Of a stretch of 39,767 bases of DNA, positions 224-28,012 are shown one piece after another. The notes beneath the pieces were generated by a model. The model saw only the letters and a program-made list of their open reading frames with translations, did no database searches and had not been told where the DNA came from. The stretch is from Candidatus Krumholzibacteriota bacterium (GTDB lineage Bacteria > Krumholzibacteriota > Krumholzibacteriia > LZORAL124-64-63): NCBI GenBank assembly GCA_039714075.1, contig JBDLKA010000024.1, forward strand, positions 1 through 39,767. The letters run 5' to 3'. The translations under genes were made by a program, and so were the position numbers. Numbering within the stretch: the first letter of the stretch is position 1; each line of letters starts with the position of its first letter.

Positions 224-2440
224 GTGATCAGAACAGGGATTATACTGGGCATCTTGTTGCTCGCTTTTCCGGCGCTCGCGGAAAATGAGACCGCCACCGA
301 GGAAACCCGCCCCGTCATCGGGCTGGCCCTGGGCGGCGGCGGCGCCCGCGGGCTGGCGCACATCGGCGTGCTCCAGCGCCTGGATGAACTGCGGATTCCC
401 GTGGACCGGGTGGCCGGCACCAGCATGGGCGCGGTGGTGGGAGTCCTCCTGTCCCTCGGCTTCAGCCCGGATGAGATCGAGGCCATGGTCCTGGAGGTCG
501 ACTGGCGCAGTTTCATGACCGACCGACCGGACCGCCGCCGGATGTCCTACCGCCGCAAGACGGACTACATGGAAAACATCTGGCCCATCGAGTTCGGGAT
601 CACCAGCGACGGCCTGGTCCTGCAGCGCGGCATGATGATGGGCCAGCGGTTCAACTTCGTTTTCCAGGCTCCCGGACTCTACACCGCGGGTTACGCCAGC
701 TTCGATTCGCTGCCCATCCCCTACCGGCCCGTAGCCACCGACCTGGTGACCGGGGATGTGGTGATCCCCGACCGCGGCAACCTGTTGCGGGCGGTGCGGG
801 CCAGCATGGCGGCTCCGGGGGCCTTCCCGCCGGTGCAGATCGGGGACCATCTTCTGGTGGACGGGTACCTCCGCACCATGATCCCGGTCGATACGGTGCG
901 GGACATGGGAGCGGACCGCGTGATCGCCGTGCACGTCGGCTGGTCCCCCGGGGAGACCCCGAAAGGAACCCACTGGGATCTGCCCGACATCCTCATGCAG
1001 TCCAACTTCATCCTGACCTATTCCAACGTTGTGCCGCAGCTCGAAGCGTCGGACGTGGGTCTTTCGGTGAGCCTGCCGGAGGTTCCCCTCTTCGACCTCA
1101 CCCAGGCCGAAAGCACCATCGCGGCGGGACGGGCCACCATGGATGAACATCTGGCGGAGCTTCTGCCCCTGGCCCTGTCCGAAGAGGAGTACGCGCGGTG
1201 GCGGGAAGAGATCCGTTCCTGGGACCTGGCGTCCCCGGTCATCGACCGGGTCAGCATCGACAACCGGACCATGGTCAGCGACCGGACCATCTCCACACGG
1301 GTCACCCAGGCGCCGGGCGACACCCTGGACCTCGACCTGTTGAAACGCGACCTGGGCCGGGTCTATCAGCTGGGGGTTTTCGAATCGGTTGATTTCAGCC
1401 TCGAAGGGTCGGAGCCGGCCAAGGAACTGGTCGTCAATCCCACGGGGAAACCCTACCTGCCCTGGATCATGCGGATCGGGGCGTCCTACCGCATGAACAT
1501 GCAGAACCGGGGAGAGATCCAGCTTCTGGCCCACCTCGTGCGCTACGAGTACAACCGGCTGGGCGGCGAACTGCGCACCGATCTTGCGCTCGGATCGCTG
1601 TTCGGGGCGGGCGCCGAATTCTACCAGCCCCTCGAATACTCCCGGACGCTGTTCGTCGCCCCGGCGGTCTCCTTCGCCTCGCAGAGCGACGCCGTATACG
1701 ATGGCTCCTACCGCCTGGGCGAGTACCGCACCGACGAATGGACGGGACGATTCGATCTGGGCCTGAACTTGGGCAGCGTCGCCGAAATCAGGGCCGGCTA
1801 CCAGCTTGGCGGGGCCGAAGCGGAAGTGAAATCGGGCAGCCTGGGTTTTCTTCCGCAGCATGATGATATCGGAGCCCTGAGGTTCGGGCTGGGGTTCGAC
1901 CTTCTCGACCGCCACTCCATCCCGAAACACGGCATCGCCGGCAGATTCCAGGCCTGGTTGGCGCGGCCGGATCTGGGTGACGACCTGGATTTCGGAAGAT
2001 ATTGGGGACATCTGGTCGGGGCTGCGACCCGGGGGAACTGGACCGTTCAATACCGCGCCCAGGGCGGAGGCAGTGAAGGGGATCTGCCCTATTACCGGCA
2101 GTACATGATGGGCGGGCTGCGCGACCTGACCGGCATCCCCGACGGCTCTTTGCGCGGGCGGGCGTTCGGCATGGCCGGGGTGGGTCTGCTGTATCACCTG
2201 TCAGGCATGAACCTGCCTTTCGCCACCCAGTGGTATCTGGGCGGCTGGGCCGACACCGGCAACACGTGGGACAGTCCCGAATCCGCACGCCTGGCCGACT
2301 TCAAACTGGGCGGGGCCTTGACCTTTCTCATGGATACGGCCTTCGGACCCCTGGAAGCCGGGTACGGCCGCAGCGACAACGGCCAGGGAACGTTCTACCT
2401 GCAGGCGGGCATCCATTTCGCCCAGCCGCTGAACCACTGA
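224..2440 (+). CDS. Patatin-like phospholipase with POTRA domain and Omp85/BamA-like beta-barrel (PlpD-like, type Vd architecture)
   Basis: Signal peptide; patatin motifs GGGGARG, GTSMG (nucleophile) and DGY; POTRA-like segment (IDRVSIDN...VYQLGVFESVDF); C-terminal alternating aromatic beta-strands ending FYLQAGIHF. GTG start with GGGGA upstream. Confidence 0.9.
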   Translation: MIRTGIILGILLLAFPALAENETATEETRPVIGLALGGGGARGLAHIGVLQRLDELRIPVDRVAGTSMGAVVGVLLSLGFSPDEIEAMVLEVDWRSFMTDRPDRRRMSYRRKTDYMENIWPIEFGITSDGLVLQRGMMMGQRFNFVFQAPGLYTAGYASFDSLPIPYRPVATDLVTGDVVIPDRGNLLRAVRASMAAPGAFPPVQIGDHLLVDGYLRTMIPVDTVRDMGADRVIAVHVGWSPGETPKGTHWDLPDILMQSNFILTYSNVVPQLEASDVGLSVSLPEVPLFDLTQAESTIAAGRATMDEHLAELLPLALSEEEYARWREEIRSWDLASPVIDRVSIDNRTMVSDRTISTRVTQAPGDTLDLDLLKRDLGRVYQLGVFESVDFSLEGSEPAKELVVNPTGKPYLPWIMRIGASYRMNMQNRGEIQLLAHLVRYEYNRLGGELRTDLALGSLFGAGAEFYQPLEYSRTLFVAPAVSFASQSDAVYDGSYRLGEYRTDEWTGRFDLGLNLGSVAEIRAGYQLGGAEAEVKSGSLGFLPQHDDIGALRFGLGFDLLDRHSIPKHGIAGRFQAWLARPDLGDDLDFGRYWGHLVGAATRGNWTVQYRAQGGGSEGDLPYYRQYMMGGLRDLTGIPDGSLRGRAFGMAGVGLLYHLSGMNLPFATQWYLGGWADTGNTWDSPESARLADFKLGGALTFLMDTAFGPLEAGYGRSDNGQGTFYLQAGIHFAQPLNH

Positions 2441-2603
2441 CCGGCCGCCCGCGTGCCGATGGCCGAAGCTTTGCAGTTCGTGCCTGGGAGCTGGAATTGC
2501 ACCCAGCTGTTGCCGTTGTGGTTGTCGTTGCGGAAAAGTATGTTCCCCATATTAATTCTTATGGTACTTTCCCGTTATTGGGCCCATAACGAAACGGAGT
2601 TTC

Positions 2604-3158
2604 ATGAGGTATCTAACTTTGACCGCCGCTGTATTGATGATCGCTCTGCCCTTTTTGGCCCTCGCCCAGGAAGAATCCGGATCAACCGAGGAAGTTTCCA
2701 TCCTGGAAAGGGTCCAGAAAGCAGCGGAACTGATCACAGCCAGCAAAGAGGCACGCGAGGCCGGCATTCCCGAAGAGGAAGTCGCCAAGGTACTCAAAGA
2801 CGCCCGTGAACGGGGACTTTCTCCCCGCGAAACCGAAGGAATCCTGTCAGAGTCCACCTCTGCGGTGGAAGAGTCCGGACCCGTGGACAATTTCGGCGGC
2901 TTCGTCCAGGCCAAACTGGATGAGGGTCTGCGGGGAAAAGAGTTGGCCGCCGCCATTCACGCGGAACACCGCCAGCATGGCAAAGGCAAGGGACACGGAA
3001 AGCAGAAGGACCATCCCCAGGGCAAGAAGGGCGGCCCGGGTGATGCGAGGCATGATGACGATGATGAACACGATCACGATCATGATCACGGCCACAATGG
3101 TGATGACGATGAAGACCAGGGCCGCGGCAAGGGTAAACAAAAAGACAAGGGGAAATAA
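2604..3158 (+). CDS. Secreted hypothetical protein with His/Asp/Gly/Lys-rich low-complexity C-terminus
   Basis: RBS GGAG; Sec signal peptide (MRYLTL...ALA-Q); helical core; tail HDDDDEHDHDHDHGH. Confidence 0.8.
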   Translation: MRYLTLTAAVLMIALPFLALAQEESGSTEEVSILERVQKAAELITASKEAREAGIPEEEVAKVLKDARERGLSPRETEGILSESTSAVEESGPVDNFGGFVQAKLDEGLRGKELAAAIHAEHRQHGKGKGHGKQKDHPQGKKGGPGDARHDDDDEHDHDHDHGHNGDDDEDQGRGKGKQKDKGK

Positions 3159-3159
3159 A

Positions 3160-3510
3160 ATGAACGTATTCCTCAAACACCGCAGCATCGGTCTATTGGT
3201 CGTCTTCCTGTCTGCTGTTCTGATTGCAGGTTGCGACGACAAACAGGAATCGGCCACCGACCAGACCGAGACCGACCAGGAAACCGTCCAGGAAACCGCG
3301 GTCGAAACCGTCAGGGCTCTGACGGAAGCGGAAGAAGCCCTGGTCGCCAAGATGGCCACCGTCGCCAAGGCTCTTGAAGAAGCCCCCGCGACAGCCGGCG
3401 CCGTTCTGGAAAGTTCTTCCATGACCATGGAAGAATACGAAAAGGAAATCTACCGGATCGCTGCGGATCCGGCTCTCTCCGAAGCCTTCGAGAAGGCTAA
3501 AAACAAATAG
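3160..3510 (+). CDS. Hypothetical lipoprotein
   Basis: ATG at 3160, 1 nt after the previous stop (C-terminal part of track ORF 2806..3510); lipobox LIAG-C; followed by a terminator. Confidence 0.8.
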   Translation: MNVFLKHRSIGLLVVFLSAVLIAGCDDKQESATDQTETDQETVQETAVETVRALTEAEEALVAKMATVAKALEEAPATAGAVLESSSMTMEEYEKEIYRIAADPALSEAFEKAKNK

Positions 3511-3523
3511 ATTCCCTTGCAGG

Positions 3524-3566
3524 CAAAAGGGCGGCACCCGACAGGGATGTCGCCCTTTTGTTTTTT
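3524..3566 (+). terminator. Intrinsic terminator (possibly bidirectional)
   Basis: CAAAAGGGCGGCACCC-GACA-GGGATGTCGCCCTTTTG hairpin followed by TTTTTT, between convergent genes. Confidence 0.85.
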
Positions 3567-3623
3567 AGGGAGAAAGGGTCGACGGACCGATCCGGATTCC
3601 CGATTTCAAACCTGCTTGCAAGC

Positions 3624-4046
3624 CTACCTGAAGGCCAGATTCTCTTTTTCCAGGATCTCCATGATCCTGGCGCGCAAGCTGCGCTCCAGGTCCCAGCGTC
3701 CCTCCAATCGCGCGTAACGGGTCTGGATTTTCAGGATGATCAGGGTGCGGTCCACCTCAAGACGCTCGATGCGTTTGATGATGCGTTCCGCTTCCTTGTC
3801 CTCCGTGGCGGCCGCCAGCTCCGCCAGCAGAAGCTGCTCCGTTTCCCCGGCCTGGTCGAGCACCTGCTGGATTTCCAGATACATGGGAGACAATTTCAGG
3901 GTCGTGACACCCGGACTGCCCATGATTCTGGTTTCATCCTGGAATATGGCAGGATTATTCGACTGCTGGGGAAGATCGGCGGCACCGGCCGCAGAGACGG
4001 CCAGGACCAGAACTGAGGCCAAGGCAAAGATGATCAGGATTCTCAT
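3624..4046 (-). CDS. Secreted helical hypothetical protein
   Basis: RBS AGGAGG; signal peptide MRILIIFALA...AGA-A; coiled-coil-like body. Confidence 0.75.
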   Translation of the reverse strand: MRILIIFALASVLVLAVSAAGAADLPQQSNNPAIFQDETRIMGSPGVTTLKLSPMYLEIQQVLDQAGETEQLLLAELAAATEDKEAERIIKRIERLEVDRTLIILKIQTRYARLEGRWDLERSLRARIMEILEKENLAFR

Positions 4047-4187
4047 GGGATGAACCTCCTGTCCTACTCAAGCCGCAAGGTTGATCCAGCCTGAGATTAT
4101 TTATATTTTATCGTATTTTTTGATTTTAAACAACTCTTTTTTTACATTTTTGTTGTTTTTCTCAAAAACACCGATTAAGTATCAAAA

Positions 4188-5081
4188 TTAGCCTTTATAT
4201 TGGTCCAAAACCCCGCGCAGGGCGGCGATATGCCCGGGTGTGGTCCCGCAGCAGCCCCCGATTATCCTCACACCCGCCTTCAGCAGATCAGGCAGCGCCT
4301 CCGCCATATCCCCCGGGGTTTCGGGATAGTGGACTTCGCCCCCCTGGAGGACGGGAAGCCCCGCGTTGGCCTGGATCAGCAGGGGCATGTCCGTCACCCG
4401 CCCGAATTCCCGGGCCACGGACAGCATTCCCTCCGTTCCCTGCCCGCAGTTGCTGCCCACGGCATCGACGCCGGCAGCCGCCAGGTCATGCGCCGCGGAC
4501 GCCGGATCGTTGCCCACGATCGTGAACCATCCCCGGGGCGTGGGTTCGAAGGTGAGGGATGCCAGGACGATTCCCTTGCCGATGGCCTCCCTGGCCGCCG
4601 TCACCGCAAGGACGGCTTCGCGCAGGTCGGTCATCGTTTCGACCGTCAACAGGTCCACGCCCCCGGCCGCCAGGGCGGCGGCCTGAATCCTGAAACCGTC
4701 CAGGACCTCGTCCGGATCGACATCGCCATAGGGCGTTAGAAGCCGGCCGCACGGTCCGATGGATCCGCTGACCAAACCTCCGCCGGCCGCTCCGGCGACA
4801 GCCGCGGCCGCGGCCGCCCGGTTGATTTCTTCACATTGATCCGCCAACCCGTGGGCGGCCAGCATGAGCGGGGAACCTCCGAAAGAATTGGTGTGGACCA
4901 GATCCGATCCCGCGGCGATATATTCCGCGGCGATGCCCGCGGGAACTTCCGGCCGGGTCAGGTTCAGGCTTTCCGGCGCCTGGCCGGGTTCGAGGCCCGC
5001 GTCCTGGAGCCGGGTTCCCATGGCTCCGTCCGCCAGGAGAACTTTCTTTGCGGCCAGCAGGTTTTCCAGGATGATGTTCAT
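4188..5081 (-). CDS. Homocysteine S-methyltransferase (stand-alone MetH Hcy-binding domain)
   Basis: DGAMGT, TNSFG, ETM, GSNCG and GGCCG (three Zn-ligand Cys), QANAGLP; start overlaps the upstream stop (ATGA). Confidence 0.92.
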   Translation of the reverse strand: MNIILENLLAAKKVLLADGAMGTRLQDAGLEPGQAPESLNLTRPEVPAGIAAEYIAAGSDLVHTNSFGGSPLMLAAHGLADQCEEINRAAAAAAVAGAAGGGLVSGSIGPCGRLLTPYGDVDPDEVLDGFRIQAAALAAGGVDLLTVETMTDLREAVLAVTAAREAIGKGIVLASLTFEPTPRGWFTIVGNDPASAAHDLAAAGVDAVGSNCGQGTEGMLSVAREFGRVTDMPLLIQANAGLPVLQGGEVHYPETPGDMAEALPDLLKAGVRIIGGCCGTTPGHIAALRGVLDQYKG

Positions 5082-5716
5082 GCTTCCTCCATCAACCGCC
5101 GGATACGGTCCACGGCGCTTACGCCGTCGAACGCGTAGGCGTCGGCCCCGATTTCGCGGACGTATTCCTCGGTCACCGGAGCACCCCCGGCCACCGTCTT
5201 CACCCGGCCCGCCAAGCCCTCCTTCGCCAGCAGTTCGACGACCTCCTTCATGACCGGCATGGTGGTGGTCAACAGGGCGGACATGCCGATCACCCGGGCA
5301 TCGTGCCGGCGGGCGGCGTCCAGGAATTCGGCGGGCGCCACGTCGGTTCCCAGGTCGATGACCTCGAATCCCGCCCCGGCCAGCATGATGCCCACCAGGT
5401 TCTTCCCGATGTCGTGCTGGTCGCCCCGCACGGTGCCCAGTACCGCCTTGCCCGCCGCCGGCACGTCCTGCTTGATCAGCAGGGGTTTCAAAAGATCCAT
5501 TCCCGCGTGCATCGCCCGGGCGGACAGCAGAACGTGCGGCAAAAAGATCCGGTGGGTGCGAAACTTTTCTCCCACCACGTCCATGCCCGCGATCAGTCCC
5601 TGGTTGAGAATGGTCTCGGCGGACAGGCCCTGCGCCATGGCTTCGGTGGTCAGGGCCGCCACTTCGTCAGCCTTGCCCAGGTCCAGTTGTTCGGCGATTC
5701 GTTCCAACAGCTCCAT
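5078..5716 (-). CDS. Corrinoid (cobalamin-binding) methyl-carrier protein, MttC/MtbC/MetH B12-domain type
   Basis: Cap domain (GLIAGMDVVGEKF...FLPHVL) plus DQHDIGKN (DxHxxG), SALLTTT and GGA motifs; start re-called to ATG 5716 with GAGGA RBS. Confidence 0.93.
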   Translation of the reverse strand: MELLERIAEQLDLGKADEVAALTTEAMAQGLSAETILNQGLIAGMDVVGEKFRTHRIFLPHVLLSARAMHAGMDLLKPLLIKQDVPAAGKAVLGTVRGDQHDIGKNLVGIMLAGAGFEVIDLGTDVAPAEFLDAARRHDARVIGMSALLTTTMPVMKEVVELLAKEGLAGRVKTVAGGAPVTEEYVREIGADAYAFDGVSAVDRIRRLMEEA

Positions 5717-5717
5717 G

Positions 5718-6428
5718 TCAGATTTCTTCCTCGAAGGGGGCCAGCACGGTCCGGATGCGCTCCCGGCATTCCTTGCCGGTGCAGGCCGCACAGAAAGGAT
5801 AATCAATGGCGAAGCGGTGGATCTCCGGCGGTCCGGCGACGATCACGCCGGACACCGATTTGAGCGGCCACATCAGGGAACTTTCCGACAGGGAGATCCC
5901 CGCATTCCGGGAGCCGAGACGGGCAAAGAGGTTCTGTTGACTGCTGACATGCCAACCGCAGTACCCGGGACTGTACCGCAGGACACCCGACCCCGCGGCC
6001 AGGGCCGTGGTGAATTTGTCCTGCGCCACCTGGGCGGCCCGATCCGCCGCCAGCGAAGCGCCCGCGTCGAGGGTCGCTCCCAAAGGGTAGTCGTTGGCCT
6101 GAAACAGGTCGCTGATCCGGTCGCACACCGCCTGCCCGCAGGTCACCGCGAACAGGGAAAGTTCTTCGGCCCGGGGAAATATTTTCTGCAGGGGCGTGTC
6201 GGGCTCATTGAAGCCCTGTCCGCGGTAGATATCCGCGAATTCCCCAGGGTCCACCTTTTCCAGGACCCCCGCAGGTGAAAGGGCGGCCGCCAACTCGGCA
6301 CGCGCGTCTTCGGCGACGGCCAGCAGTTTGGCCATGCCCGACGCATGATCGGGAACACCCTGCTGCGCCAGGATGGCCGCGGCAGAAGGCAGGATCTCCT
6401 CCACTTTGATTTCCAGGATCGTGCTCAC
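5718..6428 (-). CDS. B12-dependent methionine synthase activation (SAM-binding reactivation) domain protein
   Basis: FAVTCG, RYSPGYCGW and MWPLKSVSG motifs of the MetH activation domain; C-terminal CxxCxxxxC; GTG start overlaps the upstream stop. Confidence 0.85.
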   Translation of the reverse strand: MSTILEIKVEEILPSAAAILAQQGVPDHASGMAKLLAVAEDARAELAAALSPAGVLEKVDPGEFADIYRGQGFNEPDTPLQKIFPRAEELSLFAVTCGQAVCDRISDLFQANDYPLGATLDAGASLAADRAAQVAQDKFTTALAAGSGVLRYSPGYCGWHVSSQQNLFARLGSRNAGISLSESSLMWPLKSVSGVIVAGPPEIHRFAIDYPFCAACTGKECRERIRTVLAPFEEEI

Positions 6429-7885
6429 CGCGTCCCCTCCGGCAGGTGATCCATCCCCGCGGCCGCGGCGGCCGCCGACATTCTTTCCACCAGTCCGGCC
6501 TGCGCTTCGGCGCTCAAACCCGGCGGTTGCCAGGAAAACTCCAGGGTGTCCGCCGCCGCACGGGCCCTGGCGGCCAGCAAGCGGCCGCCTTCCTCCAGCC
6601 AGCGCGACTGGTTCGCCCTTTCGATGACCGGGCCGGGAAAATGATGTTCATCCGCCAGGTTTTTCAGGGAGTGATCGTTGATCAGCAGATGACCCTCGGC
6701 CAGCAGCTCTTCAACCCGCGGCCGGACCGGGAAATCATCACGCGGAGTCACACCCCTGCCCAAACGCAGCGCCAGGCCGGCGATCTCATGATCGACGACC
6801 AGCTTTTCCACGCTCTGGCAATTCTCGAAATCCAGCATGCCGGGACCGGACACGCTGTTGATGCCGGACAATACCGCCACCACCACGCCCATGCCCGTCT
6901 CGAGTCCGGCCTGGGCGTCCAGGCCCTTGGCGTCGCTCAGGGCGATGTAGGCCTGGGTGGGAAGCCCCAGCCGTTTGCCAACCTCGTTCAGGCCGGCATC
7001 CAGCAGCCAGGTTTCGGCCGCGCCCATGGGCGTGGTTTCGTAGCGGATGTCGAACGGTGCGGGCGACCCTCCGTAAAGAACCCGCGCCCCCGGGGAAACC
7101 AGTTGCGCCAGGATCACCCCGCTCAAGGTCTCGGCCGCGTGTTGCGCCAGGGTTCCGGCCACCGTCACCGGCGAGGTGAAGCCCGCCAGGGGCATGGTCG
7201 GGATCTCCACCGGAATGCCCGCGGCCGCACAGTCCATCAGGTTTTGGCTGGTGATGTCGCTCCATTGCAGCGGGGTGGTCGGGGCGCAGGAAAAAACCGC
7301 CAGGGGTTTGGCCCGCAGTTCGTCCGCGGAACCCCGCACGGCCAGGAGCAGGTCGCGCATCACGGCAAACCCCTCGACCGAAAACGCTCCGGTGACCACC
7401 GGTTTGGCGCAGTGCTTCAGACCCAGGAAAAGGCGGTAGCTGTCCTGCACCGGACCCGGAACGTCTGCGGGGATGAAAGCCGTGCTCTGGGCGGCGATAT
7501 CCGGTAGCCCGGCCACGACTTTCGCATACCGCACATAGTCCGCGGTGGTGGGTTGCCGCATCCGTCCGCTGTCGGGATCGAGATAGTGGATGGCCGAGGA
7601 TCCCGGCGTGAAATGGACCCGGTCGCCGCCCAGGTCGTGGGTCTGTTCGCCGTGCGCGTCGTAAAGCGTGAACGAGGCGGGGGCCGTTTCCAGGGACCGG
7701 TCGATCAGGTCGGCCGTGAACCAGGCGTGCCGCGAGGCGGCATCGATCCGGGCCCCGTGATCACCCAGCAGGACCAGGGCCTGGTCGTTGTGGATCTCCA
7801 TCCCCAGCCCGCACAGCAGGTCGCGGGCCTCGGCGATGATGCGGTCGGCCAGGTCATCGGTCAGGAATCGCAAAACGGGTCGCAT
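6425..7885 (-). CDS. mttB: Trimethylamine methyltransferase (MttB) superfamily protein, non-pyrrolysine
   Basis: Family motifs SPVTVAGTLAQHAAETLSG, YGG, MGAAET, LGLP, SDAK.LDAQAG.E, GPGMLD; no in-frame TAG; start ATG 7885 with AAAGGA RBS. Confidence 0.92.
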   Translation of the reverse strand: MRPVLRFLTDDLADRIIAEARDLLCGLGMEIHNDQALVLLGDHGARIDAASRHAWFTADLIDRSLETAPASFTLYDAHGEQTHDLGGDRVHFTPGSSAIHYLDPDSGRMRQPTTADYVRYAKVVAGLPDIAAQSTAFIPADVPGPVQDSYRLFLGLKHCAKPVVTGAFSVEGFAVMRDLLLAVRGSADELRAKPLAVFSCAPTTPLQWSDITSQNLMDCAAAGIPVEIPTMPLAGFTSPVTVAGTLAQHAAETLSGVILAQLVSPGARVLYGGSPAPFDIRYETTPMGAAETWLLDAGLNEVGKRLGLPTQAYIALSDAKGLDAQAGLETGMGVVVAVLSGINSVSGPGMLDFENCQSVEKLVVDHEIAGLALRLGRGVTPRDDFPVRPRVEELLAEGHLLINDHSLKNLADEHHFPGPVIERANQSRWLEEGGRLLAARARAAADTLEFSWQPPGLSAEAQAGLVERMSAAAAAAGMDHLPEGTR

Positions 7886-8109
7886 GGGTTTCCTTTGGCG
7901 TTGCTTCGGCAAGGTTCACCATGAAGGCCGGGGATTGGTCATCCCCGCGGGCAAATGCAAGCCTGGCAAGAAGAAACCGTCCTTTTCGGGCACGGGGTCC
8001 GCCCCTTCATGCAACAAAACCCCGTCTTATCAGTATATTAAAATTACCCCCTTCAATGTTGTATATATGAAATCAATCTCGCCAACAGATTTAATGGTTG
8101 GAGAGTGTT

Positions 8110-10260
8110 GTGATCAGCCAAATCATTTCCCGGTACAAGATTGTTTCCCGTATCGCCACCGGCGGCATGGGTTCGGTCTACCTGGCGCGGGACACCAAGC
8201 TGGAGCGCTCCATCGCCCTGAAGGTTCTGCCGCCGGAGGTGGCCTCGGACCCCAGCGCGCTGGCGCGATTTCGGCAGGAGGCGCGGGCCATCGCCGCGGT
8301 CAACCACCCCAACATCGTGGTCATCCATTCGGTGGAGGAAGTCGGTGATACGCACTTCATCACCATGGAACTGATCAAGGGCCGCACCCTGTCCGACATC
8401 ATGACCGGCCAGGGCATGGACCTGAATTTCTTCTTCGACGTCACCATTCCCTTGGCCGGGGCCCTGGAAGCCGCCCACGCCCAGGGCGTGACCCACCGGG
8501 ACCTGAAACCCGCCAACATCATGGTCACGGACGAGGGCCAGGTGAAGGTGCTGGATTTCGGACTGGCCAAGGTGGTGCGATCGGATTCCGAAAGCGACGT
8601 CGACAAGGCCCGCACCGAGACCCTGCTGGCCGACGAACTGATCATCGGCACACCCAACTACATGTCACCCGAACAGGTGCGCAGCCAGCCCGCGGACCAT
8701 CGTTCCGACATCTTCTCCCTGGGCGCGGTCATGTACCACATGATCTCGGGGCAGCGGCCCTTCCAGGGCGAAACCATCACCGAGATCATGGCGTCGGTCA
8801 TCCGGGACACTCCCAACCCCGCCTCCCTGGTGAACCCTGATTGCCCTCTCCAGCTCGGCCACCTGATCGCGCGCTGTCTGGACAAGGACCCCAGCAAGCG
8901 CTTCCAGGATGTTTCCGAGCTTCGCCTCCAGCTGGAGCAGATCCACGGGCAGGTGGAACAGGAGGCCGAAGGTCTCATCCATTCCATCGCCGTGCTGCCT
9001 TTTGCGGACATGAGCCCGCTGAAGGACCAGGAACATTTCTGCACCGGGATCGCCGAGGAAATCATCAACGCCCTGGCGGGGGTCGACCGGCTCAAGGTCG
9101 TTTCCCGGATGTCCTCGTTCCAGTACCAGGACCTGGGTGGCGACACCAGGGAGATCGGTCACAAGCTGGGGGTACAGACCCTGCTCGAGGGCAGTGTGCG
9201 CAAGGCCAGCGGCCAGCTGCGGATCATCGCCCAGTTGATCGACGTGTCCGACGGTTGCCACATCTGGTCGCAACGTTTCGACCGTGAACCGCGCGACATT
9301 TTCGAAGTCCAGGACGAGATCGCCCAAAGCGTGGTCAAGGCCCTGCGTCTGACCATCGACCCCGCGAGGGAACACAAGCTCGTCGGGATCCGGACCAACG
9401 ACCCCGCCGCCTATGACTTCTATCTCCGCGGCCGGGAATTCTTCCGCCGTTGGGGCAAACGCAACATCCAGATCGCCCAGCGCATGTTCTTCCAGGCCAG
9501 CGCCATCGATCCCGATTTCGCCTCGGCCCACGCGGGGTTGGCCGACACCTATTCGTACCTGTACATGTACATCAACAGCAGTCAGGAGAACCTGGAACAG
9601 GCCGACCGCAACAGTGCGCGCGCCCTGGAACTGGATCCCGCCCTGGCCGAAGGCCATGCCTCGCGCGGCCTGGCCCTGTCGCTGAGCAAAAACCACCAGG
9701 CCGCCATCCGGGCCTTCAACACGGCGATCGAACTGGACAGCAACCTTTTCGAAGCCTACTACTTCTGCGCCCGGGACCTGGTTGTCCAGGGCAAGTACAA
9801 GGAGGCCGTCTCCTACTACGACCAGGCCCACGAAGCCAGTCCGGACGATTACCAGATCCCCATTCTCAAGGCCCAGATCCATCACGCCCTGGGCCAGACC
9901 GATCAAGAGGAGGCGGCCAACCGCCAGGGCATGGAACTGGCCGAAAAGGCCATCCTGCTGAATCCCGAGGACGCCCGCGCCTGCTATATGGGCGCCGGGG
10001 CGATGATCCGGCTGGGGCAGGAAAAGCGGGGCCTCCAGTGGGCCAAAAGAGCGCTGGCCCTGGACCCGGACGATCCGGCCATCCTTTACAACGTGGCCTG
10101 CAACCTGGCGGGACTGGGGCAGATCGCCGAAGCCATCGACTGTCTGGAAAGAACGGTGAAGGTCGGCGCGGCCTACAAGGACTGGATGATGAACGACACC
10201 GACCTGGATCCGCTGCGTGAAAACGAGCGGTTCAGGAAGTTGGTCGCAAGTCTGGAATAA
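8110..10260 (+). CDS. Hanks-type Ser/Thr protein kinase with TolB-N-like domain and TPR repeats
   Basis: GGMGSVY, ALK, HRDLKPAN, DFG, GTPNYMSPEQ; SIAVLPF...LEGSVR domain; C-terminal TPRs; no transmembrane segment. Start probably GTG 8110 (GGAG RBS); the track gives 8098. Confidence 0.93.
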   Translation: MISQIISRYKIVSRIATGGMGSVYLARDTKLERSIALKVLPPEVASDPSALARFRQEARAIAAVNHPNIVVIHSVEEVGDTHFITMELIKGRTLSDIMTGQGMDLNFFFDVTIPLAGALEAAHAQGVTHRDLKPANIMVTDEGQVKVLDFGLAKVVRSDSESDVDKARTETLLADELIIGTPNYMSPEQVRSQPADHRSDIFSLGAVMYHMISGQRPFQGETITEIMASVIRDTPNPASLVNPDCPLQLGHLIARCLDKDPSKRFQDVSELRLQLEQIHGQVEQEAEGLIHSIAVLPFADMSPLKDQEHFCTGIAEEIINALAGVDRLKVVSRMSSFQYQDLGGDTREIGHKLGVQTLLEGSVRKASGQLRIIAQLIDVSDGCHIWSQRFDREPRDIFEVQDEIAQSVVKALRLTIDPAREHKLVGIRTNDPAAYDFYLRGREFFRRWGKRNIQIAQRMFFQASAIDPDFASAHAGLADTYSYLYMYINSSQENLEQADRNSARALELDPALAEGHASRGLALSLSKNHQAAIRAFNTAIELDSNLFEAYYFCARDLVVQGKYKEAVSYYDQAHEASPDDYQIPILKAQIHHALGQTDQEEAANRQGMELAEKAILLNPEDARACYMGAGAMIRLGQEKRGLQWAKRALALDPDDPAILYNVACNLAGLGQIAEAIDCLERTVKVGAAYKDWMMNDTDLDPLRENERFRKLVASLE

Positions 10261-11296: not shown

Positions 11297-12061
11297 TCAG
11301 AACCGTAGGGAAAGGCAGGTCAACCCCCCGTCCATCTTCCGGAACTCGCCCGTATCCAGTTCGACGATCTCGACTCCCAGTCCGTCCAGTTCCTCCCTCG
11401 TCCGCGGGTACCCTTCCGGCATGATCAGGCGCTCGTTGACCAGCAGGACGTTGGCCGCGTATTCCTCATTCGGCGGAACGCGGATCAGCCGGAAGTCCGC
11501 CAGCTCCGTCCGGTCGGCGAAGTCGGCGGCCACCAGCAGCGTATCCGGCGCCACCAGGTTCACGCTCGACTTGAAGTGCAGGCCTGCGGCGACGGAGATC
11601 GTCTGCCAGGTGTTGCCGTGGGATTCCAGGACCGCCCCGAGCCGGCGGGCGCCCTCCTCGTTGGTGCGGGCCGACAGGCCAATCAAAAAGTGGGTGCCGA
11701 TCATCAGGACGTCCCCGCCGTCCAGGGTGCCCGGCGGTTCGATGGACTCCAGCGGTCGGTGGACAGCCAAGGCTTCGGCGATGGATTGCTGCTCGCCCTG
11801 GCGGGCAAGTGCGCCCGGACGGGTGACGACAGCCACGTCAGGGGTGACCACGGCGGTATCCTCGACGAAATGGGCGTCGGGATATCCCGGCAGGGCGTCC
11901 AGGACGGTCACATCCAGGCCGCAATCCCGCAGAGTGTCCACGTAGCGGTCGAACTGTCGGCAGGCTTGTTGGAAGTCGGGCGCGCCGAGGTCGGCGGTGG
12001 TGATTCCGCCGGCCAGGTCGGAGCCCGGCCGGCGGCAGAGAGCGTGGGTGAACTTGTTCAT
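11297..12061 (-). CDS. ddaH: N(G),N(G)-dimethylarginine dimethylaminohydrolase (amidinotransferase superfamily)
   Basis: FVEDTAV, LDGGD, RTN, LHFKS and C-terminal DGGLTCLS (catalytic Cys); start ATG 12061 with GGAGGA RBS. Confidence 0.9.
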   Translation of the reverse strand: MNKFTHALCRRPGSDLAGGITTADLGAPDFQQACRQFDRYVDTLRDCGLDVTVLDALPGYPDAHFVEDTAVVTPDVAVVTRPGALARQGEQQSIAEALAVHRPLESIEPPGTLDGGDVLMIGTHFLIGLSARTNEEGARRLGAVLESHGNTWQTISVAAGLHFKSSVNLVAPDTLLVAADFADRTELADFRLIRVPPNEEYAANVLLVNERLIMPEGYPRTREELDGLGVEIVELDTGEFRKMDGGLTCLSLRF

Positions 12062-12110
12062 CTGTGTGGCATCCTCCGGAAAACCGGAGCATGCCCGAAT
12101 CATCCGGCCA

Positions 12111-14828
12111 TCACAACGAAAAGTACTGCGACACCTTCACCATGAAGATGTTTTCCCCCTGGGCGTCCAGCAGGGACCGCGAATCGCGGCCGAGGTCGAA
12201 GCTGCCCGGGTCGTCGAAGTTCATCCGGTCCTGGGTCCACACGAAAAAGAAGGTGCTGCCGGCGACGTACTCCCAGCGCAGGACCATGTTCACCTTCAGC
12301 GACTTGAAGTTGAAGTCCTCGTCCCGCAGGCGGAAGGTGTTTCCGGGGTCCGACCCGTCGGGGGTCACCAGCCAGGGGTTGTCCGCATCTCCGGCAGAGT
12401 CGTACACGATGGTCGAACCGTTGTCCTGCCCGTAACGGTTGAAGTCGTAGGAACCGGGCCGGGCCAGTTCCTTCCGGTCGGAATAGGCGCCCACCGCGAA
12501 CAGCGGCTGAATGTACGCCTGCAGGGTGAGCTTCGGGGTGAAGGTCCAGTCGATGCGCGTCTCCATGCTGAACTGGCGGTACTCCAGATCGGCGAAGATG
12601 TACCGGTTGCCGTGGGTGTCCGTCATGGCCGGGTCGGGGACCTCGTCGTAGTACTGGGACTCGTCCTGGGTCCAGGAATACCGGGGACTCAAGGACAGCT
12701 TCAGGGCGCTGACCGGTTGCAGTTCAAGCGACAGGCGGCCGTAAGCGGTTTGCGACCCGCCGTCGTCCTTCGACCCGCCCACCGACAGGCGGACCTGCCA
12801 TTTCCGGCGGCTGTCCGTGCTGATGCCCAGGTCGAACTCACGGTAATTAGGAACCCTCATCACCGGACCGCCCCGAGTCCGCCGGCCGTCGTTCCGTTCG
12901 GGATTGAAGAACATCATGCCGTCGAGATTCCAGAAGTTGGCGAACTCCATCCAGTAGAAAATGCCGCCACCCCACTGGTCGGGACGACCTCCGGTGTCCC
13001 AGGTCTTGTAGCCCCCCAGATTGAGGCTGATATTCCGGTAGATCCCCTTCGGCTCGAGCCAGCGGTAGCCGCCCATCACCGAGGTGTTGATCATGTCCGT
13101 CCTGAAGATGAAACCGAGGTCGTTGATTTCATACCCCGGAGAGGAATATCCGGCCGCCGAATTGAAGCGCCAGTTGCCCGACTGCTTGTTCACCGCCGCC
13201 CGACCGACCCAGCCCTTGATTTCGGTGGCGTCAGGATCGTACGCCACGTGATCCACGTCGGGCCGCTGGTAGTAACGGCGCGACGAAAGCTGCAGGGCGC
13301 TGATCGCGTCCGTGCTGCCGGTCAGATGGCTGCCAGACAGGTAGGCTTTGGCCGCCCACACGCCTTCTTCATCCAGGTTCGTCCAACCGTCGATGCCGCC
13401 GGTGAAGGCGCGGCGGTCGAGAGCCGCCTGACTGACGGGATCATCCAGGTCGCGAATGGTGCTGGTGCCCATGATGCCCAACCCCTTCAAACCGTCCGAG
13501 CTCGAGACCTTGGCCCGGACCACCGAGTAGTTGGTCAACGGTTCGACCACCTGTTCGTACCGGTGGCCGTCCTTTTCCAGGTGGGCCTTCTCCCTGTCCG
13601 TGACGGCCGTCAGACCGCCCACCGAGGTGTTGCCGATCTTGCCGCTGACCTTGGCGGCGCCCAGGATGGTTGTGAACTGGGGCACGTCGGCATAGTCGGG
13701 CTGGGTGTCGAGCGATATTTGTGGGGCGCGACCGACCCGGCGACTGTAGAACAACATCGGATCCATCCAGTTGAAGCCCCAGTTGCTGTTGAGCCCCTCG
13801 CGCCCGAAACGGAAGATATTGGCGTCCTCCACGAAGAACGGCCGCCGTTCCTCGTAGAAGGTTTCGTAGGCGGACAGGTTGACCACGGCCGGATCCACCT
13901 CGACCTGCCCGAAATCAGGATTCACCGTCGCGTTCATGGTCAGGTTGTTGGACAGCGCGGTTTTCAGGTCCAGACCCGCGTTACCGGAAAAATCGGGATC
14001 GTCGTGGAAGGGATCGTCCGGATCGACTTCCCGGTATTCCCCCTTGCCCAGACCGTAGACAAGGAGTTCGCCCTTGCCGTCGGGTTCGATCCCCTTCAGG
14101 CCGACCAGGTCGGGAAAACGACTGCCGTAGCCCGACTCGCCGCGCGGCATGTGGAACAATTCGGCTCGTTCGTGGTGACGCAGGGTGCGGCGGGAGAAGT
14201 TCATGCCCCAGACCTGTTCCTCGGCTGCGGGGAACTTCAGCTGGGAAAAAGGAACCCGCATTTCCAGGGTCCAGCCCAAGTCGTCGATTTTTGTCGCCAC
14301 CTCCCAGACCCCGTCCCAGGAAGGGTCGTCCCAGCCGTCGTTGTACAGCACCGCGTCGCCGATCACGCCGGCGGGATTGATGGAAAACGAAAAAGCGTTC
14401 CGGTCGTCGTTGAAGGTGTCCAGGTTGATGAATACCCAGTCGGACGAGGGCCACGTGTCCCGGCGGCCCAGGCGGGCCTCGATGGAGTCCGGCGCCGAAT
14501 CGTACATTCTGGCCGCGATGTACAGAGCCTGGTCGTCGTAGGCCACCCAGAATTCGGTTTTGTTGCGCGGGGGGCATCCGTTATCGGGGTCGTTCTGTAT
14601 CAGGCGCGACTCGCCGGGCTGCCGCCAATCGGTTTCGTCCAGAATGCCGTCCAGTTCGACGGGACCGGATAGACGGAAGGCGCGGATCTCGTCGGCAACC
14701 GGCACTCCGGCGGGGTCACAGGAACCGTTGGTCTCCTGGGCCCCGGCCGCGGAGGCGGCAAGAAACAGGGCGGCGAACAGGAAATGATGAAAGGAGATGG
14801 TCCGAAGCGTCTGAGCGAAGGCGATCAT
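12111..14828 (-). CDS. Secreted/outer-membrane protein with CBM9-like sugar-binding N-domain and DUF5916-type domain
   Basis: Signal peptide; LDGILDE.DW, YDDQALY, W..EMRVPF, NPDFGQVEVD, E.RPFFVE, LFYSRRVG motifs; start re-called to ATG 14828 (GAGGA RBS). Confidence 0.85.
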   Translation of the reverse strand: MIAFAQTLRTISFHHFLFAALFLAASAAGAQETNGSCDPAGVPVADEIRAFRLSGPVELDGILDETDWRQPGESRLIQNDPDNGCPPRNKTEFWVAYDDQALYIAARMYDSAPDSIEARLGRRDTWPSSDWVFINLDTFNDDRNAFSFSINPAGVIGDAVLYNDGWDDPSWDGVWEVATKIDDLGWTLEMRVPFSQLKFPAAEEQVWGMNFSRRTLRHHERAELFHMPRGESGYGSRFPDLVGLKGIEPDGKGELLVYGLGKGEYREVDPDDPFHDDPDFSGNAGLDLKTALSNNLTMNATVNPDFGQVEVDPAVVNLSAYETFYEERRPFFVEDANIFRFGREGLNSNWGFNWMDPMLFYSRRVGRAPQISLDTQPDYADVPQFTTILGAAKVSGKIGNTSVGGLTAVTDREKAHLEKDGHRYEQVVEPLTNYSVVRAKVSSSDGLKGLGIMGTSTIRDLDDPVSQAALDRRAFTGGIDGWTNLDEEGVWAAKAYLSGSHLTGSTDAISALQLSSRRYYQRPDVDHVAYDPDATEIKGWVGRAAVNKQSGNWRFNSAAGYSSPGYEINDLGFIFRTDMINTSVMGGYRWLEPKGIYRNISLNLGGYKTWDTGGRPDQWGGGIFYWMEFANFWNLDGMMFFNPERNDGRRTRGGPVMRVPNYREFDLGISTDSRRKWQVRLSVGGSKDDGGSQTAYGRLSLELQPVSALKLSLSPRYSWTQDESQYYDEVPDPAMTDTHGNRYIFADLEYRQFSMETRIDWTFTPKLTLQAYIQPLFAVGAYSDRKELARPGSYDFNRYGQDNGSTIVYDSAGDADNPWLVTPDGSDPGNTFRLRDEDFNFKSLKVNMVLRWEYVAGSTFFFVWTQDRMNFDDPGSFDLGRDSRSLLDAQGENIFMVKVSQYFSL

Positions 14829-14998
14829 ATGGATCCTCACTGGACATTGGAGAGCTGTCTGGGAAAAACCGGACCGGGGGCGGTTTCCCGATGACGCGGC
14901 GAGTCTGCAGGCGGGGGTCCCGGACTCACCTGTCCATATGACGATCAAAACGGGCAAAAGGTTGTGGTAAATTTTGGAATTGATCCGGAATTCCTGGA

Positions 14999-15319
14999 TC
15001 AATCCTCGTCGTCCTCCTCCTCTTCCTCCTGGTCCTTCAGCCGCTCGCGGGCCGCCTGCTGCAGGTCGAGGAACGCCTGGGGAATTTCCACGCCCAGAGC
15101 CAACGATTCCCGCTCGGCCAGGGCCACCTGGTCGGGTTGGGGGCGCCATTCGCCACGGACCATGGAGCGCAACTGGTCGCGGTCGAACCGCCACTGCCCG
15201 CCGATCCGGGTGCCGGGAATCTCGCCTGCCTTCAACATGCGCTGAATGGTCCGCTCGCTGATCTGCAGCATTTCGGCGGCCTGTTGGAGGGTCAGTATTT
15301 CGGGACATTCGCGGGACAT
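14999..15319 (-). CDS. Excisionase/BldC-like helix-turn-helix (HTH_17) DNA-binding protein
   Basis: ILTLQQAAEMLQISERTIQRMLKAGEIPGTRIGGQWRF; acidic tail; ATG 15319 with AGGAGG RBS. Confidence 0.88.
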   Translation of the reverse strand: MSRECPEILTLQQAAEMLQISERTIQRMLKAGEIPGTRIGGQWRFDRDQLRSMVRGEWRPQPDQVALAERESLALGVEIPQAFLDLQQAARERLKDQEEEEEDDED

Positions 15320-21208: not shown

Positions 21209-21342
21209 TAATTCCCTCCAATGGGATGTTTCGAATTTCACCCAAGAAGATGTCAACTGAACCCTACAATTATAACATATTCGCCTTTTTTTGGGAAATC
21301 ATAAGCATTATCCCCTGGTGCGCATGAACTTAGCTCCTGAAA

Positions 21343-27202: not shown

Positions 27203-27231
27203 TTTACAATAGGCCTTGATTCTGATAGGAT
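27203..27231 (+). promoter_or_regulatory. Putative sigma70 promoter
   Basis: TTTACA-17 nt-TAGGAT, 40 nt upstream of the GTG at 27272. Confidence 0.55.
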
Positions 27232-28000: not shown

Positions 28001-28012
28001 AGTAGGCTGTCC

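What the first reader, a model, noticed from the sequence alone, without database searches (positions are those of the whole stretch)
4188..7885. Split B12 methionine synthase with the folate module replaced by a non-Pyl MttB amine demethylase
Seen: four co-oriented genes with coupled junctions (GTGA overlap 6425-6428, 1-nt gap 5716/5718, ATGA overlap 5078-5081) encode MttB, a SAM reactivation domain, a corrinoid protein and a Hcy methyltransferase. No pterin-binding gene is present in the operon or the window. Established: MetH has four modules (Hcy, methyl-THF/pterin, cobalamin, reactivation), and non-Pyl MttB proteins (MtgB, MtcB, MtpB) move methyl groups from quaternary amines to a corrinoid protein, normally for catabolism via THF with ATP-dependent RamA-type activators. 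Inference: this is a self-contained, folate-independent route from an N-methyl compound via Co-corrinoid to methionine, reactivated MetH-style by SAM. I recall a comparable betaine-to-methionine route in marine Roseobacter-group bacteria, so the novelty is probably the lineage, the complete single-operon layout and the unknown methyl donor.
Basis: partly seen in the sequence, partly recalled or inferred. Interest (0 to 1): 0.8.

Follow-up and report, generated by a model that had tools for sequence, protein, structure and literature searches.

The report
MttB-corrinoid-homocysteine methionine synthase cassette
Four tightly packed genes probably pass a methyl group from an unidentified methylated compound through a vitamin-B12 protein to homocysteine, making methionine without folate, but this gene set and idea were already published in 2022 and remain untested.

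Summary
Four co-oriented, translationally coupled minus-strand genes (4188-7885) encode a pyrrolysine-free MttB-family methyltransferase, a TM0269-type MetH activation protein, a His-on corrinoid protein and a zinc-type homocysteine S-methyltransferase. No pterin-binding gene lies in the window.

The novelty claim fails: Williams et al. 2022 (PMC9324843) described this cluster in several uncultured phyla and proposed the same function. This scan has also reported the cassette on other DNA at least seven times.

The genome (92% complete) also holds a full-length MetH. I found no stand-alone methyl-folate module and no RamA.

New here:
- The donor is unlikely to be glycine betaine, because 0 of 4 MtgB betaine-binding residues are kept.
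- RamA-bearing loci never carry the homocysteine or activation genes.
- The activation protein has a conserved CxxCxxxxC tail that TM0269 lacks.
- A dimethylargininase-like gene adjoins the MttB gene or the cassette in three separate lineages (one operonic, one without the partner genes), a weak lead to the donor.

Verdict: a real, ordinary member of a published but untested kind.

The parts
6425..7885 (-). Pyrrolysine-free MttB-family (PF06253) methyltransferase of 486 aa, the presumed methyl-donor:corrinoid methyltransferase.
   Evidence: PF06253 scores 1e-66. TIGR02369 scores 305.8 bits, below its 525-bit cut-off. The frame has no internal stop. PDB matches are MtgB at 194 bits and Pyl-MttB at 157 bits, with Leu325 at the pyrrolysine position. 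The pocket stretch GMLDFENCQS is invariant or nearly so in 59 close orthologues.
5718..6428 (-). Stand-alone MetH-type activation (reactivation) protein of 236 aa, TM0269-like, with a C-terminal C213-x2-C216-x4-C221 motif and C157 in SPGYCGW.
   Evidence: PF02965 scores 6.7e-9. The family profile hits 1J6R (TM0269) at 2.9e-16 over positions 5-201 of 239, then MetH activation domains. The AlphaFold2 model has pLDDT 90.4. Foldseek top hit is 1j6r with TMt 0.83, then MetH activation domains. The three tail Cys are invariant in 19 of 19. The tail is present in 149 of the 150 best representatives.
5078..5716 (-). Corrinoid (cobalamin-binding) protein of 212 aa with a cap domain and a Rossmann domain, base-off/His-on type.
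   Evidence: PF02607 scores 6.6e-21 and PF02310 scores 7e-28. The best NCBIfam model is MtgC_2 at 213 bits, with MetH at 153 bits. D99-x-H101-x-x-G104, S146-x-L148 and G177-G178 are invariant in 23 of 23.
4188..5081 (-). Homocysteine S-methyltransferase (PF02574) of 297 aa, the presumed methylcorrinoid:homocysteine methyltransferase.
   Evidence: PF02574 scores 5.4e-62. NCBIfam scores are YitJ N-domain 239 bits, Bmt-type 212, MetH 165 and MmuM only 87. The Cys triad C212, C277 and C278 is invariant in 23 of 23. A true MmuM lies elsewhere in the genome.
7886..8097 (.). Intergenic region between the operon and a divergent Ser/Thr kinase gene, presumed to hold the promoter and leader.
   Evidence: No Rfam family matched at the gathering threshold or at E<=1. 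No sigma-70-like promoter was found. The kinase is at 8098-10260.

Best explanation
The operon encodes a four-protein, corrinoid-dependent, folate-independent 'methyl donor:homocysteine' methyltransferase system, that is, an accessory methionine synthase.

Step 1 (inferred from family membership): the MttB-family TIM-barrel enzyme binds a positively charged methylated donor and transfers its methyl group to Co(I) on the corrinoid protein.

Step 2 (inferred): the methyl-Co(III) corrinoid protein docks on the homocysteine S-methyltransferase. The zinc-activated homocysteine thiolate takes the methyl group, giving methionine and Co(I).

Step 3 (inferred): when the cofactor oxidises to Co(II), the TM0269-type activation protein restores it by reductive methylation with S-adenosylmethionine, as in MetH. 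This replaces the ATP-driven RamA route.

The donor is unknown and is probably not glycine betaine. The system is accessory, because the genome also has a complete MetH. It would let the cell feed scavenged methyl groups straight into the methionine/SAM cycle.
For: - Domain identities and catalytic motifs are present: PF06253, PF02965, PF02607 plus PF02310, and PF02574. DxHxxG, SxL and GG are invariant in 23 of 23 corrinoid proteins. The Cys triad is invariant in 23 of 23 homocysteine methyltransferases.
- The activation protein matches TM0269 by profile at 2.9e-16 and by fold with TMt 0.83.
- The junctions indicate translational coupling.
- Gene order is conserved. Among close MttB orthologues (>=500 bits) with at least 2.9 kb on both sides, 19 of 31 loci show MttB-Act-Cor-Hcy: 10 of 20 genome loci and 9 of 11 metagenome loci. 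A second order, Cor-Hcy-Act-MttB, occurs in 4 further loci and in 5 of 6 loci fetched from the same phylum.
- Activator type tracks acceptor type. None of the 9 loci with a RamA/RACo neighbour carries the Hcy or Act gene.
- No pterin-binding ORF was found in 148 loci by phmmer with the own MetH pterin domain, a query of limited sensitivity.
- In the own genome (92.2% complete), the only PF00809 genes are FolP (TIGR01496, 303 bits) and full MetH. There is no MtrH and no RamA.
- Predicted binding of the homocysteine methyltransferase and the corrinoid protein got weak support. The score was 0.49 against a best control of 0.00. That mark was reached by 116 of 157 solved complexes and 2 of 215 mismatched pairs. 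At 0.60 or under, only 18 of those 157 solved complexes reached it, as did both mismatches that passed. Runs agreed in at least 74% of contacts and the partner pLDDT was at least 81. The result may reflect likeness to MetH structures.
- The same hypothesis was reached independently by Williams et al. 2022.
Against: - I found no biochemical or genetic test of this cassette in the papers listed (5 and 7 listed).
- The genome has a full MetH, an MmuM and a core-MetE-like gene, so nothing requires this route.
- 9 of the 31 informative close orthologues stand alone. Among 5 such genomes, 3 have no activation-protein match at all, and one keeps Act-Hcy at another locus. The MttB orthologue is therefore not obligately tied to homocysteine.
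- The Arg of the MetH RxxxGY SAM motif is present in only 8 of 19 family members, the window's protein included, so SAM use is inferred.
- All characterised non-Pyl family members use quaternary amines and pass the methyl group to THF (papers read).
- The complex prediction is only weak support.
Confidence: 0.6

Rival explanations
1. The cassette is a Roseobacter-style shared-corrinoid system. Cor, Hcy and Act form a split methyl-THF-dependent methionine synthase whose folate module is encoded elsewhere. The MttB homologue is a catabolic entry that normally sends methyl groups on to THF.
For: In Ruegeria and Phaeobacter the modules are dispersed and one corrinoid protein serves both roles (PMC12478193; PMC5764234). 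In one genome the MttB orthologue and Act-Hcy lie at separate loci.
Against: No stand-alone pterin-binding or MtrH-type gene was found in the own genome at 92.2% completeness. The only PF00809 hits are FolP and full MetH. No pterin ORF lies next to the cassette in 148 loci. Reactivation is by the MetH-type protein, not RamA.
Confidence: 0.12
2. This is a catabolic or detoxifying demethylase. The PF02574 protein methylates a thiol other than homocysteine, or homocysteine serves only as a catalytic methyl carrier, and the purpose is removal of the donor's methyl groups rather than methionine supply.
For: The genome already has MetH, MmuM and a MetE-like gene. Relatives of the MttB clade in Chloroflexota and Bathyarchaeia sit in typical catabolic MttB-Cor-MttB2-RamA layouts. 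A permease or a hydrolase adjoins the cassette in some genomes.
Against: PF02574 proteins with the Cys triad are known as (seleno)homocysteine methyltransferases; this is established family knowledge that I recalled. The pairing with a MetH-type activation protein is specific to the Hcy-linked loci. There is no THF or CoM-type exit module.
Confidence: 0.12
3. The homocysteine methyltransferase works alone with SAM or S-methylmethionine, like MmuM, and its adjacency to the corrinoid genes is incidental.
For: The PF02574 family includes corrinoid-independent enzymes. P0004 matches the MmuM model weakly, at 87 bits.
Against: A bona fide MmuM (NF007020, 377 bits against a 215-bit cut-off) is encoded elsewhere. 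The start and stop codons overlap with the corrinoid gene. The Cor-Hcy pair is kept in two different gene orders across phyla.
Confidence: 0.05

Closest known systems
Gene cluster of Williams et al. [quoted passage not shown] Electryoneota and other uncultured bacteria
   Same: The four gene families are the same and clustered in the same way. The proposed function is the same: corrinoid-dependent methionine synthesis from an unknown donor. A full MetH co-exists in the same genomes.
   Different: Nothing essential differs; this is a further member. That paper gives no biochemistry. In the parts I read, it has no active-site comparison, no note of the Cys tail of the activation protein and no contrast with RamA.
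MtgBCDE of Ruegeria pomeroyi / Phaeobacter inhibens (Mausz et al. 2025, PMC12478193; Price et al. 2018, PMC5764234)
   Same: An MttB-family methyltransferase, a separate corrinoid protein and a separate homocysteine module share one B12 carrier, linking demethylation to methionine synthesis.
   Different: That system has a pterin module (MtgD) essential for both roles. It is reactivated by RamA-like plus DUF1638 proteins with no PF02965 member, its genes are dispersed, and its donor is glycine betaine. Here there is no pterin module and no RamA. There is a MetH-type activation protein, one operon, and the betaine-binding residues are absent.
MetH, cobalamin-dependent methionine synthase, and the split Thermotoga pair TM0268/TM0269
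   Same: The homocysteine-Zn module, the His-on cobalamin module and the AdoMet-type activation module are shared. The activation protein is stand-alone, as is TM0269.
   Different: There is no methyl-THF (pterin) module. Every module is a separate protein. The corrinoid protein is nearer MtgC/MtbC than MetH. The activation protein carries a Cys-rich tail that is absent from TM0269.
MtgB-MtgC-MtgA glycine betaine:THF system of Desulfitobacterium hafniense with RamA
   Same: A non-Pyl MttB-family enzyme methylates a cognate corrinoid protein. The match to MtgB structures 9yce and 2qne is 194 bits.
   Different: The acceptor module is a homocysteine methyltransferase, not a THF methyltransferase. 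The activator is not RamA. Residues Y97, R312, H348 and F356 that bind betaine (PMC13080624, abstract) correspond to Ser, Gln, a gap and Glu here.
Core (folate-independent) methionine synthases MesA-D / core-MetE (Price et al. 2021, PMC7857596)
   Same: These are folate-independent methionine synthesis, thought to draw methyl groups from corrinoid proteins (abstract as shown in the listing).
   Different: Those enzymes are MetE-like (PF01717), not PF02574. That paper's main text has no occurrence of MttB or trimethylamine.

Membership tests
Williams-2022 MttB/Hcy/corrinoid/activation cluster | All four gene families lie in one cluster on one strand. | tested here: met
   The same order is found in 19 of 31 informative orthologous loci.
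Williams-2022 MttB/Hcy/corrinoid/activation cluster | The MttB homologue lacks pyrrolysine. | tested here: met
   The frame is open with no internal stop. Leu325 aligns with Pyl334 of M. barkeri MttB.
MetH (EC 2.1.1.13) | A pterin-binding (methyl-THF) module, PF00809. | tested here: not met
   It is absent from the operon and the window. In the genome it occurs only in FolP and in the full MetH.
MetH (EC 2.1.1.13) | A homocysteine module with Cys3 zinc ligands. | tested here: met
   PF02574 scores 5.4e-62. C212, C277 and C278 are invariant in 23 of 23. That these are the zinc ligands is recalled from MetH and BHMT.
MetH (EC 2.1.1.13) | A cobalamin module with DxHxxG...SxL...GG. | tested here: met
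   These motifs are invariant in 23 of 23. The motif definition is recalled.
MetH (EC 2.1.1.13) | An AdoMet-binding activation module with RxxxGY. | tested here: inconclusive
   Fold and profile match TM0269 and MetH. SPGY is invariant. The Arg is present in the window's protein but in only 8 of 19 family members.
MetH (EC 2.1.1.13) | All modules lie in one polypeptide. | tested here: not met
   There are four separate ORFs with their own start and stop codons.
MtgB-type glycine betaine:corrinoid methyltransferase | Betaine-binding residues Y97, R312, H348 and F356 (D. hafniense numbering). | tested here: not met
   The aligned positions are S105, Q320, an alignment gap and E363. S105, Q320 and E363 are invariant in 59 of 59 close orthologues. 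The residue list comes from the abstract of PMC13080624.
Pyl-dependent MttB (TIGR02369) | A score above the equivalog cut-off, and an in-frame UAG. | tested here: not met
   The score is 305.8 bits against a 525-bit cut-off. There is no internal stop.
Roseobacter MtgBCDE | An MtgD pterin module and RamA/DUF1638 reactivation. | tested here: not met
   No stand-alone methyl-THF module was found and no PF14574, in a genome that is 92.2% complete. DUF1638 was not searched.
TM0269-type split activation protein | A stand-alone protein of about 200-240 aa with the MetH activation-domain fold. | tested here: met
   The match to 1j6r is 2.9e-16 by profile, and Foldseek gives E 1.1e-10 with TMt 0.83. 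The Cys tail is additional.
Methionine synthase activity of the cassette | Methionine formation from homocysteine with a non-folate donor. | not testable with these tools
None was found in print by the searches.

The most novel reading that the evidence does not exclude
The donor may come from methylated arginine. A dimethylargininase-like hydrolase next to the MttB gene or the cassette would release dimethylamine or methylamine, or the methylarginine itself would be the substrate. The Pyl-free MttB homologue would then harvest those methyl groups for methionine. That would make it the first pyrrolysine-independent methyltransferase for non-quaternary methylamines or for guanidino N-methyl groups.

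In addition, the activation protein's four conserved cysteines (SPGYC plus CxxCxxxxC) may bind an Fe-S or other metal centre. Such a centre would deliver the electron for SAM-dependent reductive reactivation, making the activator self-contained.

Basis for the first idea:
- A DDAH-like gene lies 3.4 kb from the operon here. It lies 2 kb and 142 bp away in two relatives.
- It is a fifth co-directional gene within about 30 bp of a Cor-Hcy-Act-MttB cassette in another family of the phylum.
- It lies about 170 bp upstream of an MttB homologue in a Bathyarchaeia MAG; that locus carries no Act, Cor or Hcy gene.
- An APC amino-acid permease directly follows the cassette in 3 loci.

Against it:
- DDAH-like genes are common in this phylum, in 83 of 201 genomes.
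- Most cassettes have no such neighbour.
- The cysteines could equally bind structural zinc.
Probability: 0.1. Interest if true: 0.75.

Novelty: new member of a known kind. Interest (0 to 1): 0.38.

Why it matters
If the predicted chemistry holds, many uncultured sediment and marine bacteria can make methionine, and hence SAM, directly from an environmental methylated compound. In the loci fetched here the four-gene cassette is carried by records labelled Gemmatimonadota, Krumholzibacteriota, Aminicenantes and other Acidobacteriota, WOR-3 and Clostridia (Ignavibacteriales lacks the homocysteine gene), with Zixibacteria, Calditrichota and Lentisphaerota carrying it without the activation gene. 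They would bypass the folate cycle while still depending on vitamin B12. That bears on methyl-group budgets, on B12 demand and on the fate of methylated nitrogen compounds in anoxic and marine habitats.

The cassette is compact (four genes, 3.7 kb) and therefore easy to reconstitute. The open questions are the donor, and whether the activation protein carries a metal centre.

Tried and rejected
- Riboswitch or leader: Rfam found nothing at the gathering threshold over the window or at E<=1 over 7800-8200.
- Promoter and terminator scan of 3900-8200: 0 promoter-like sites and 3 terminator-like sites, against 3.9 expected from shuffles. This is uninformative.
- Expression: no RNA holder was listed.
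- Cys tail: no Pfam family matched it, even at E<=10.
- Apparent long open frames (644-1051 aa) at MttB matches in the phylum survey looked like possible fusions, including one with the DDAH-like gene. After fetching six loci they proved to be over-extended high-GC ORFs, not fusions.
No tool gave those sequences as usable ids. Only pairwise PDB scores and a tree of 83 fetched homologues were obtained. For placement relative to MtgB and MttB I rely on the text of Williams et al.; their Fig. S2 is an image and only its legend was seen.
- The TM0269 paper (PMC2203375) is not held. Its title was seen in a reference list.
- Saccharopine-dehydrogenase-like neighbours occur in 9 loci: L010, L017, L018, L024, L025, L093, L096 and two metagenome duplicates of that clade. 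I noted them but found no interpretation.
- Part 2 of the Williams supplementary PDF, which holds the rest of Table S4, was not read.

Full report
**Observation**

The window is the whole 39,767-bp contig C24 of a 4.06-Mb genome in 260 contigs, 92.2% complete. On the minus strand, four ORFs run head to tail:
- 6425-7912, with a start at ATG 7885 giving 486 aa
- 5718-6428, GTG start, 236 aa
- 5078-5806, with a start at ATG 5716 giving 212 aa
- 4188-5081, 297 aa

The chosen starts are supported by homologues. The database copy of the first protein and most of its 120 best relatives are 483-490 aa. The second and third proteins align with their relatives from residue 1.

Pfam assigns MTTB (1e-66); Met_synt_B12 (6.7e-9, C-terminal part of the profile only); B12-binding_2 plus B12-binding; and S-methyl_trans (5.4e-62).

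No pterin-binding gene is in the window. PF00809 matches in the genome lie only on C29 and C59. A Pfam scan of 45 further window ORFs found none.

The operon is flanked by a divergent Ser/Thr kinase with TPR repeats (8098-10260) and by ORFs without family matches.

**The four proteins**

MttB homologue. It has no internal stop. It scores 305.8 bits on the Pyl-MttB equivalog model, whose cut-off is 525. It aligns Leu325 with pyrrolysine-334 of the M. barkeri enzyme. Against solved structures it scores 194 bits with D. hafniense MtgB (9yce, 2qne) and 157 bits with Pyl-MttB (7xcl).

The four residues that bind glycine betaine in MtgB are Y97, R312, H348 and F356 (abstract of PMC13080624). They correspond here to Ser105, Gln320, an alignment gap and Glu363. 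Ser105, Gln320, Asp361, Phe362, Glu363 and Cys365 are invariant in 59 of 59 close orthologues, whether or not those are linked to a homocysteine gene. The clade therefore has its own conserved pocket, and glycine betaine is an unlikely substrate.

Corrinoid protein. It keeps DxHxxG, SxL and GG in 23 of 23 sequences. It scores higher on MtgC and MtbC models (213 and 186 bits) than on MetH (153 bits).

Homocysteine methyltransferase. It keeps three cysteines (C212, C277, C278) in 23 of 23 sequences. It is nearest the YitJ N-domain and Bmt models and far from MmuM (87 bits). A genuine MmuM (377 bits, cut-off 215) is encoded on another contig.

**The activation protein**

A profile of 19 family members hits T. 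maritima TM0269 (1J6R, 'Activation (AdoMet binding) domain of methionine synthase') at 2.9e-16 over nearly its whole length. It then hits the MetH activation domains of Thermus and E. coli.

An AlphaFold2 model (pLDDT 90.4) finds 1j6r first (TMt 0.83), followed by MetH activation domains.

SPGY is invariant. The Arg of the MetH RxxxGY motif is present in the window's protein but in only 8 of 19 members, so SAM binding is inferred rather than shown.

The family carries a C-terminal C-x2-C-x4-C motif, invariant in 19 of 19 and present in 149 of the 150 best cluster representatives. It also carries a cysteine directly after SPGY, in 138 of 150. TM0269 has neither.

No Pfam family covers the tail. 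A metal site is plausible but untested. From memory, the same C-x2-C-x4-C spacing binds the [4Fe-4S] cluster of the corrinoid iron-sulfur protein; no call supports this.

**Genome inventory**

The genome encodes:
- a complete five-domain MetH of 1224 aa on C59
- FolP as the only other pterin-binding protein (TIGR01496, 303 bits)
- no MtrH-family gene
- no RamA/RACo
- no second MttB-family gene among 15,250 ORFs of at least 80 aa

These absences hold for a genome that is 92.2% complete. The cassette is therefore accessory, and no stand-alone folate module was found that could serve it.

**Conservation**

The MttB protein has thousands of relatives: 6369 with E<=1e-20 among 8000 candidates scored.

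I fetched 68 loci from species-representative genomes and 80 from metagenomes (the best 80 of 120).

Among close orthologues (>=500 bits) with at least 2.9 kb on both sides:
- 19 of 31 show the order MttB-Act-Cor-Hcy (10 of 20 genome loci and 9 of 11 metagenome loci)
- 3 show partial sets
- 9 stand alone

A second order, Cor-Hcy-Act-MttB, occurs in 4 more distant loci and in 5 of 6 loci fetched from the window's own phylum.

In a sample of 201 genomes of that phylum, 77 have a match at E<=1e-100, including 3 of 7 other genomes of the same genus. The distribution is patchy.

In a tree of 83 homologues, the window's protein sits in a 5-row clade with Gemmatimonadales and Krumholzibacteriota MAGs. 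That clade lies inside a 30-row clade (SH-aLRT 96) that mixes phyla, which fits lateral spread.

Chloroflexota and Bathyarchaeia relatives have MttB-Cor-MttB2 layouts without a homocysteine gene. Nine such loci carry a RamA/RACo activator (PF14574, Raco_middle and Fer2 in the representative scanned). None of the nine has the Hcy or Act gene. Activator type thus follows acceptor type, which supports reading the cassette as MetH-like in its back half.

Against an obligate link: in five genomes whose orthologue stands alone, three (labelled Planctomycetota) have no activation-protein match at all, one has only MetH, and one has Act-Hcy at another locus.

**Mechanism**

The best reading has three steps.
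1. The MttB homologue methylates Co(I) on the corrinoid protein from a cationic methyl donor.
2. The homocysteine methyltransferase takes the methyl group from methyl-Co(III) to give methionine.
3. The activation protein repairs Co(II) by SAM-dependent reductive methylation.

All three steps are inferred from family membership, motifs and synteny. None is shown.

A complex prediction of the homocysteine methyltransferase with the corrinoid protein gave weak support. The score was 0.49 and the best of three controls was 0.00. That mark was reached by 116 of 157 solved complexes and 2 of 215 mismatches, but at 0.60 or under by only 18 of the 157 solved complexes and by both mismatches that passed. 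Runs agreed in at least 74% of contacts and the partner pLDDT was at least 81. It may reflect likeness to MetH structures.

**What is known**

Williams et al. [quoted passage not shown] Electryoneota MAGs. As far as I read Table S4, they also list it in MAGs of Marinimicrobia, an FCB-group bacterium, Zixibacteria, WOR-3, Armatimonadetes and Stahlbacteria.

They propose a novel corrinoid-dependent methionine synthesis with an unknown donor. They also note a typical MetH in the same MAGs (passages; supplementary file 1, part 1).

[quoted passage not shown] Price et al. 2018 give the genetics of the three-part synthase (passages). Price et al. 2021, on folate-independent synthases, do not mention MttB in the main text.

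Two full-text searches for a test of the cassette listed 5 and 7 papers. None of those titles or abstract openings reports biochemistry of this cluster.

This scan has reported the same cassette on other genomes at least seven times with the same conclusion. I had reached the Williams paper independently before that look-up.

**Leads to the donor (weak)**

A dimethylargininase-like gene (NF045658, 268 bits, below the 450-bit cut-off, full-length match) lies at 11297-12103 on the minus strand, 3.4 kb from the operon. Homologues lie:
- 2 kb and 142 bp from the MttB gene in two relatives
- 3.7 kb away in a metagenome contig of the same clade
- within about 30 bp, as a fifth co-directional gene, after a Cor-Hcy-Act-MttB cassette in another family of the phylum
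- about 170 bp upstream of an MttB homologue in a Bathyarchaeia MAG, a locus with no Act, Cor or Hcy gene

That makes roughly three independent juxtapositions. However, such genes are common in the phylum (83 of 201 genomes), and most cassettes have none nearby.

An APC-family amino-acid permease directly follows the homocysteine gene in 3 loci.

Only two papers in the library hold both 'MttB' and 'dimethylarginine', and both are cardiovascular by title.

**Verdict**

It is a further member of a gene set already published as a hypothesis, so its interest is moderate. The remaining value lies in the untested biochemistry, the unknown donor and the unexplained cysteine motif of the activator.

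Noticed in passing
Own genome contig C4:72119-73279 (L075:1492-2652, + strand): A core-MetE-like gene (PF01717, 111 bits) of 386 codons has one in-frame TGA at codon 216. A 57%-identical homologue in a related genome has Cys at that position. The genome has a tRNA-SeC(tca) and SelA (448 bits). This is a candidate selenocysteine-containing core methionine synthase. Only 2 of 21 related genomes have any PF01717 match. No SECIS element was sought.
   Followed up: partly
window 11297-12103 (-): A dimethylargininase (DDAH)-like gene: NF045658 at 268 bits, below the 450-bit cut-off, with a full-length match. Homologues adjoin MttB-family genes, some of them in the cassette, in three separate lineages. 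One forms a five-gene operon (L163), and one lies in a Bathyarchaeia MAG (L058) that lacks the partner genes. This is a possible clue to the methyl donor.
   Followed up: partly
window 5718-5870 (-), C-terminal 30 residues of the activation protein, plus C157: A C-x2-C-x4-C tail and an SPGYC cysteine are conserved in 149 and 138 of the 150 best family representatives. They are absent from TM0269 and are covered by no Pfam model. This may be a metal site.
   Followed up: partly
Own genome contig C77:21-3682 (L004): A second corrinoid protein (C77:1014-1697, MtgC/MtbC-like) is flanked by three URO-D/MtaA-CmuA-like ORFs. This looks like another corrinoid methyltransferase system with an unknown substrate.
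   Followed up: partly
L009:11649-13157, L010:6190-7659, L092:11687-13030: An APC-family amino-acid permease gene directly follows the homocysteine methyltransferase gene on the same strand in three loci. It is absent at that place in the window.
   Followed up: partly
L010:1161-2288; L017:11709-12845; also L018, L024, L025, L093, L096: A saccharopine-dehydrogenase-like gene (PF03435 plus PF16653) lies next to the cassette. It is convergent in the Aminicenantes-type loci and divergent in a Krumholzibacteriota MAG. Its meaning is unknown.
   Followed up: no
window 17864-21256 (-), 27164-30088 (+), 30806-31858 (-), 33494-34438 (-), 12111-15308 (-): There are several large secreted-type proteins: subtilases with PKD repeats, C-terminal FlgD_ig-type sorting domains and a DUF5916 protein. 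This suggests a protein-degrading lifestyle with a type-IX-like export signal.
   Followed up: no
window 2440-4187: This stretch has lower G+C (0.59) and only ORFs without any Pfam match. It ends in a very A+T-rich 90-bp spacer directly downstream of the operon.
   Followed up: no
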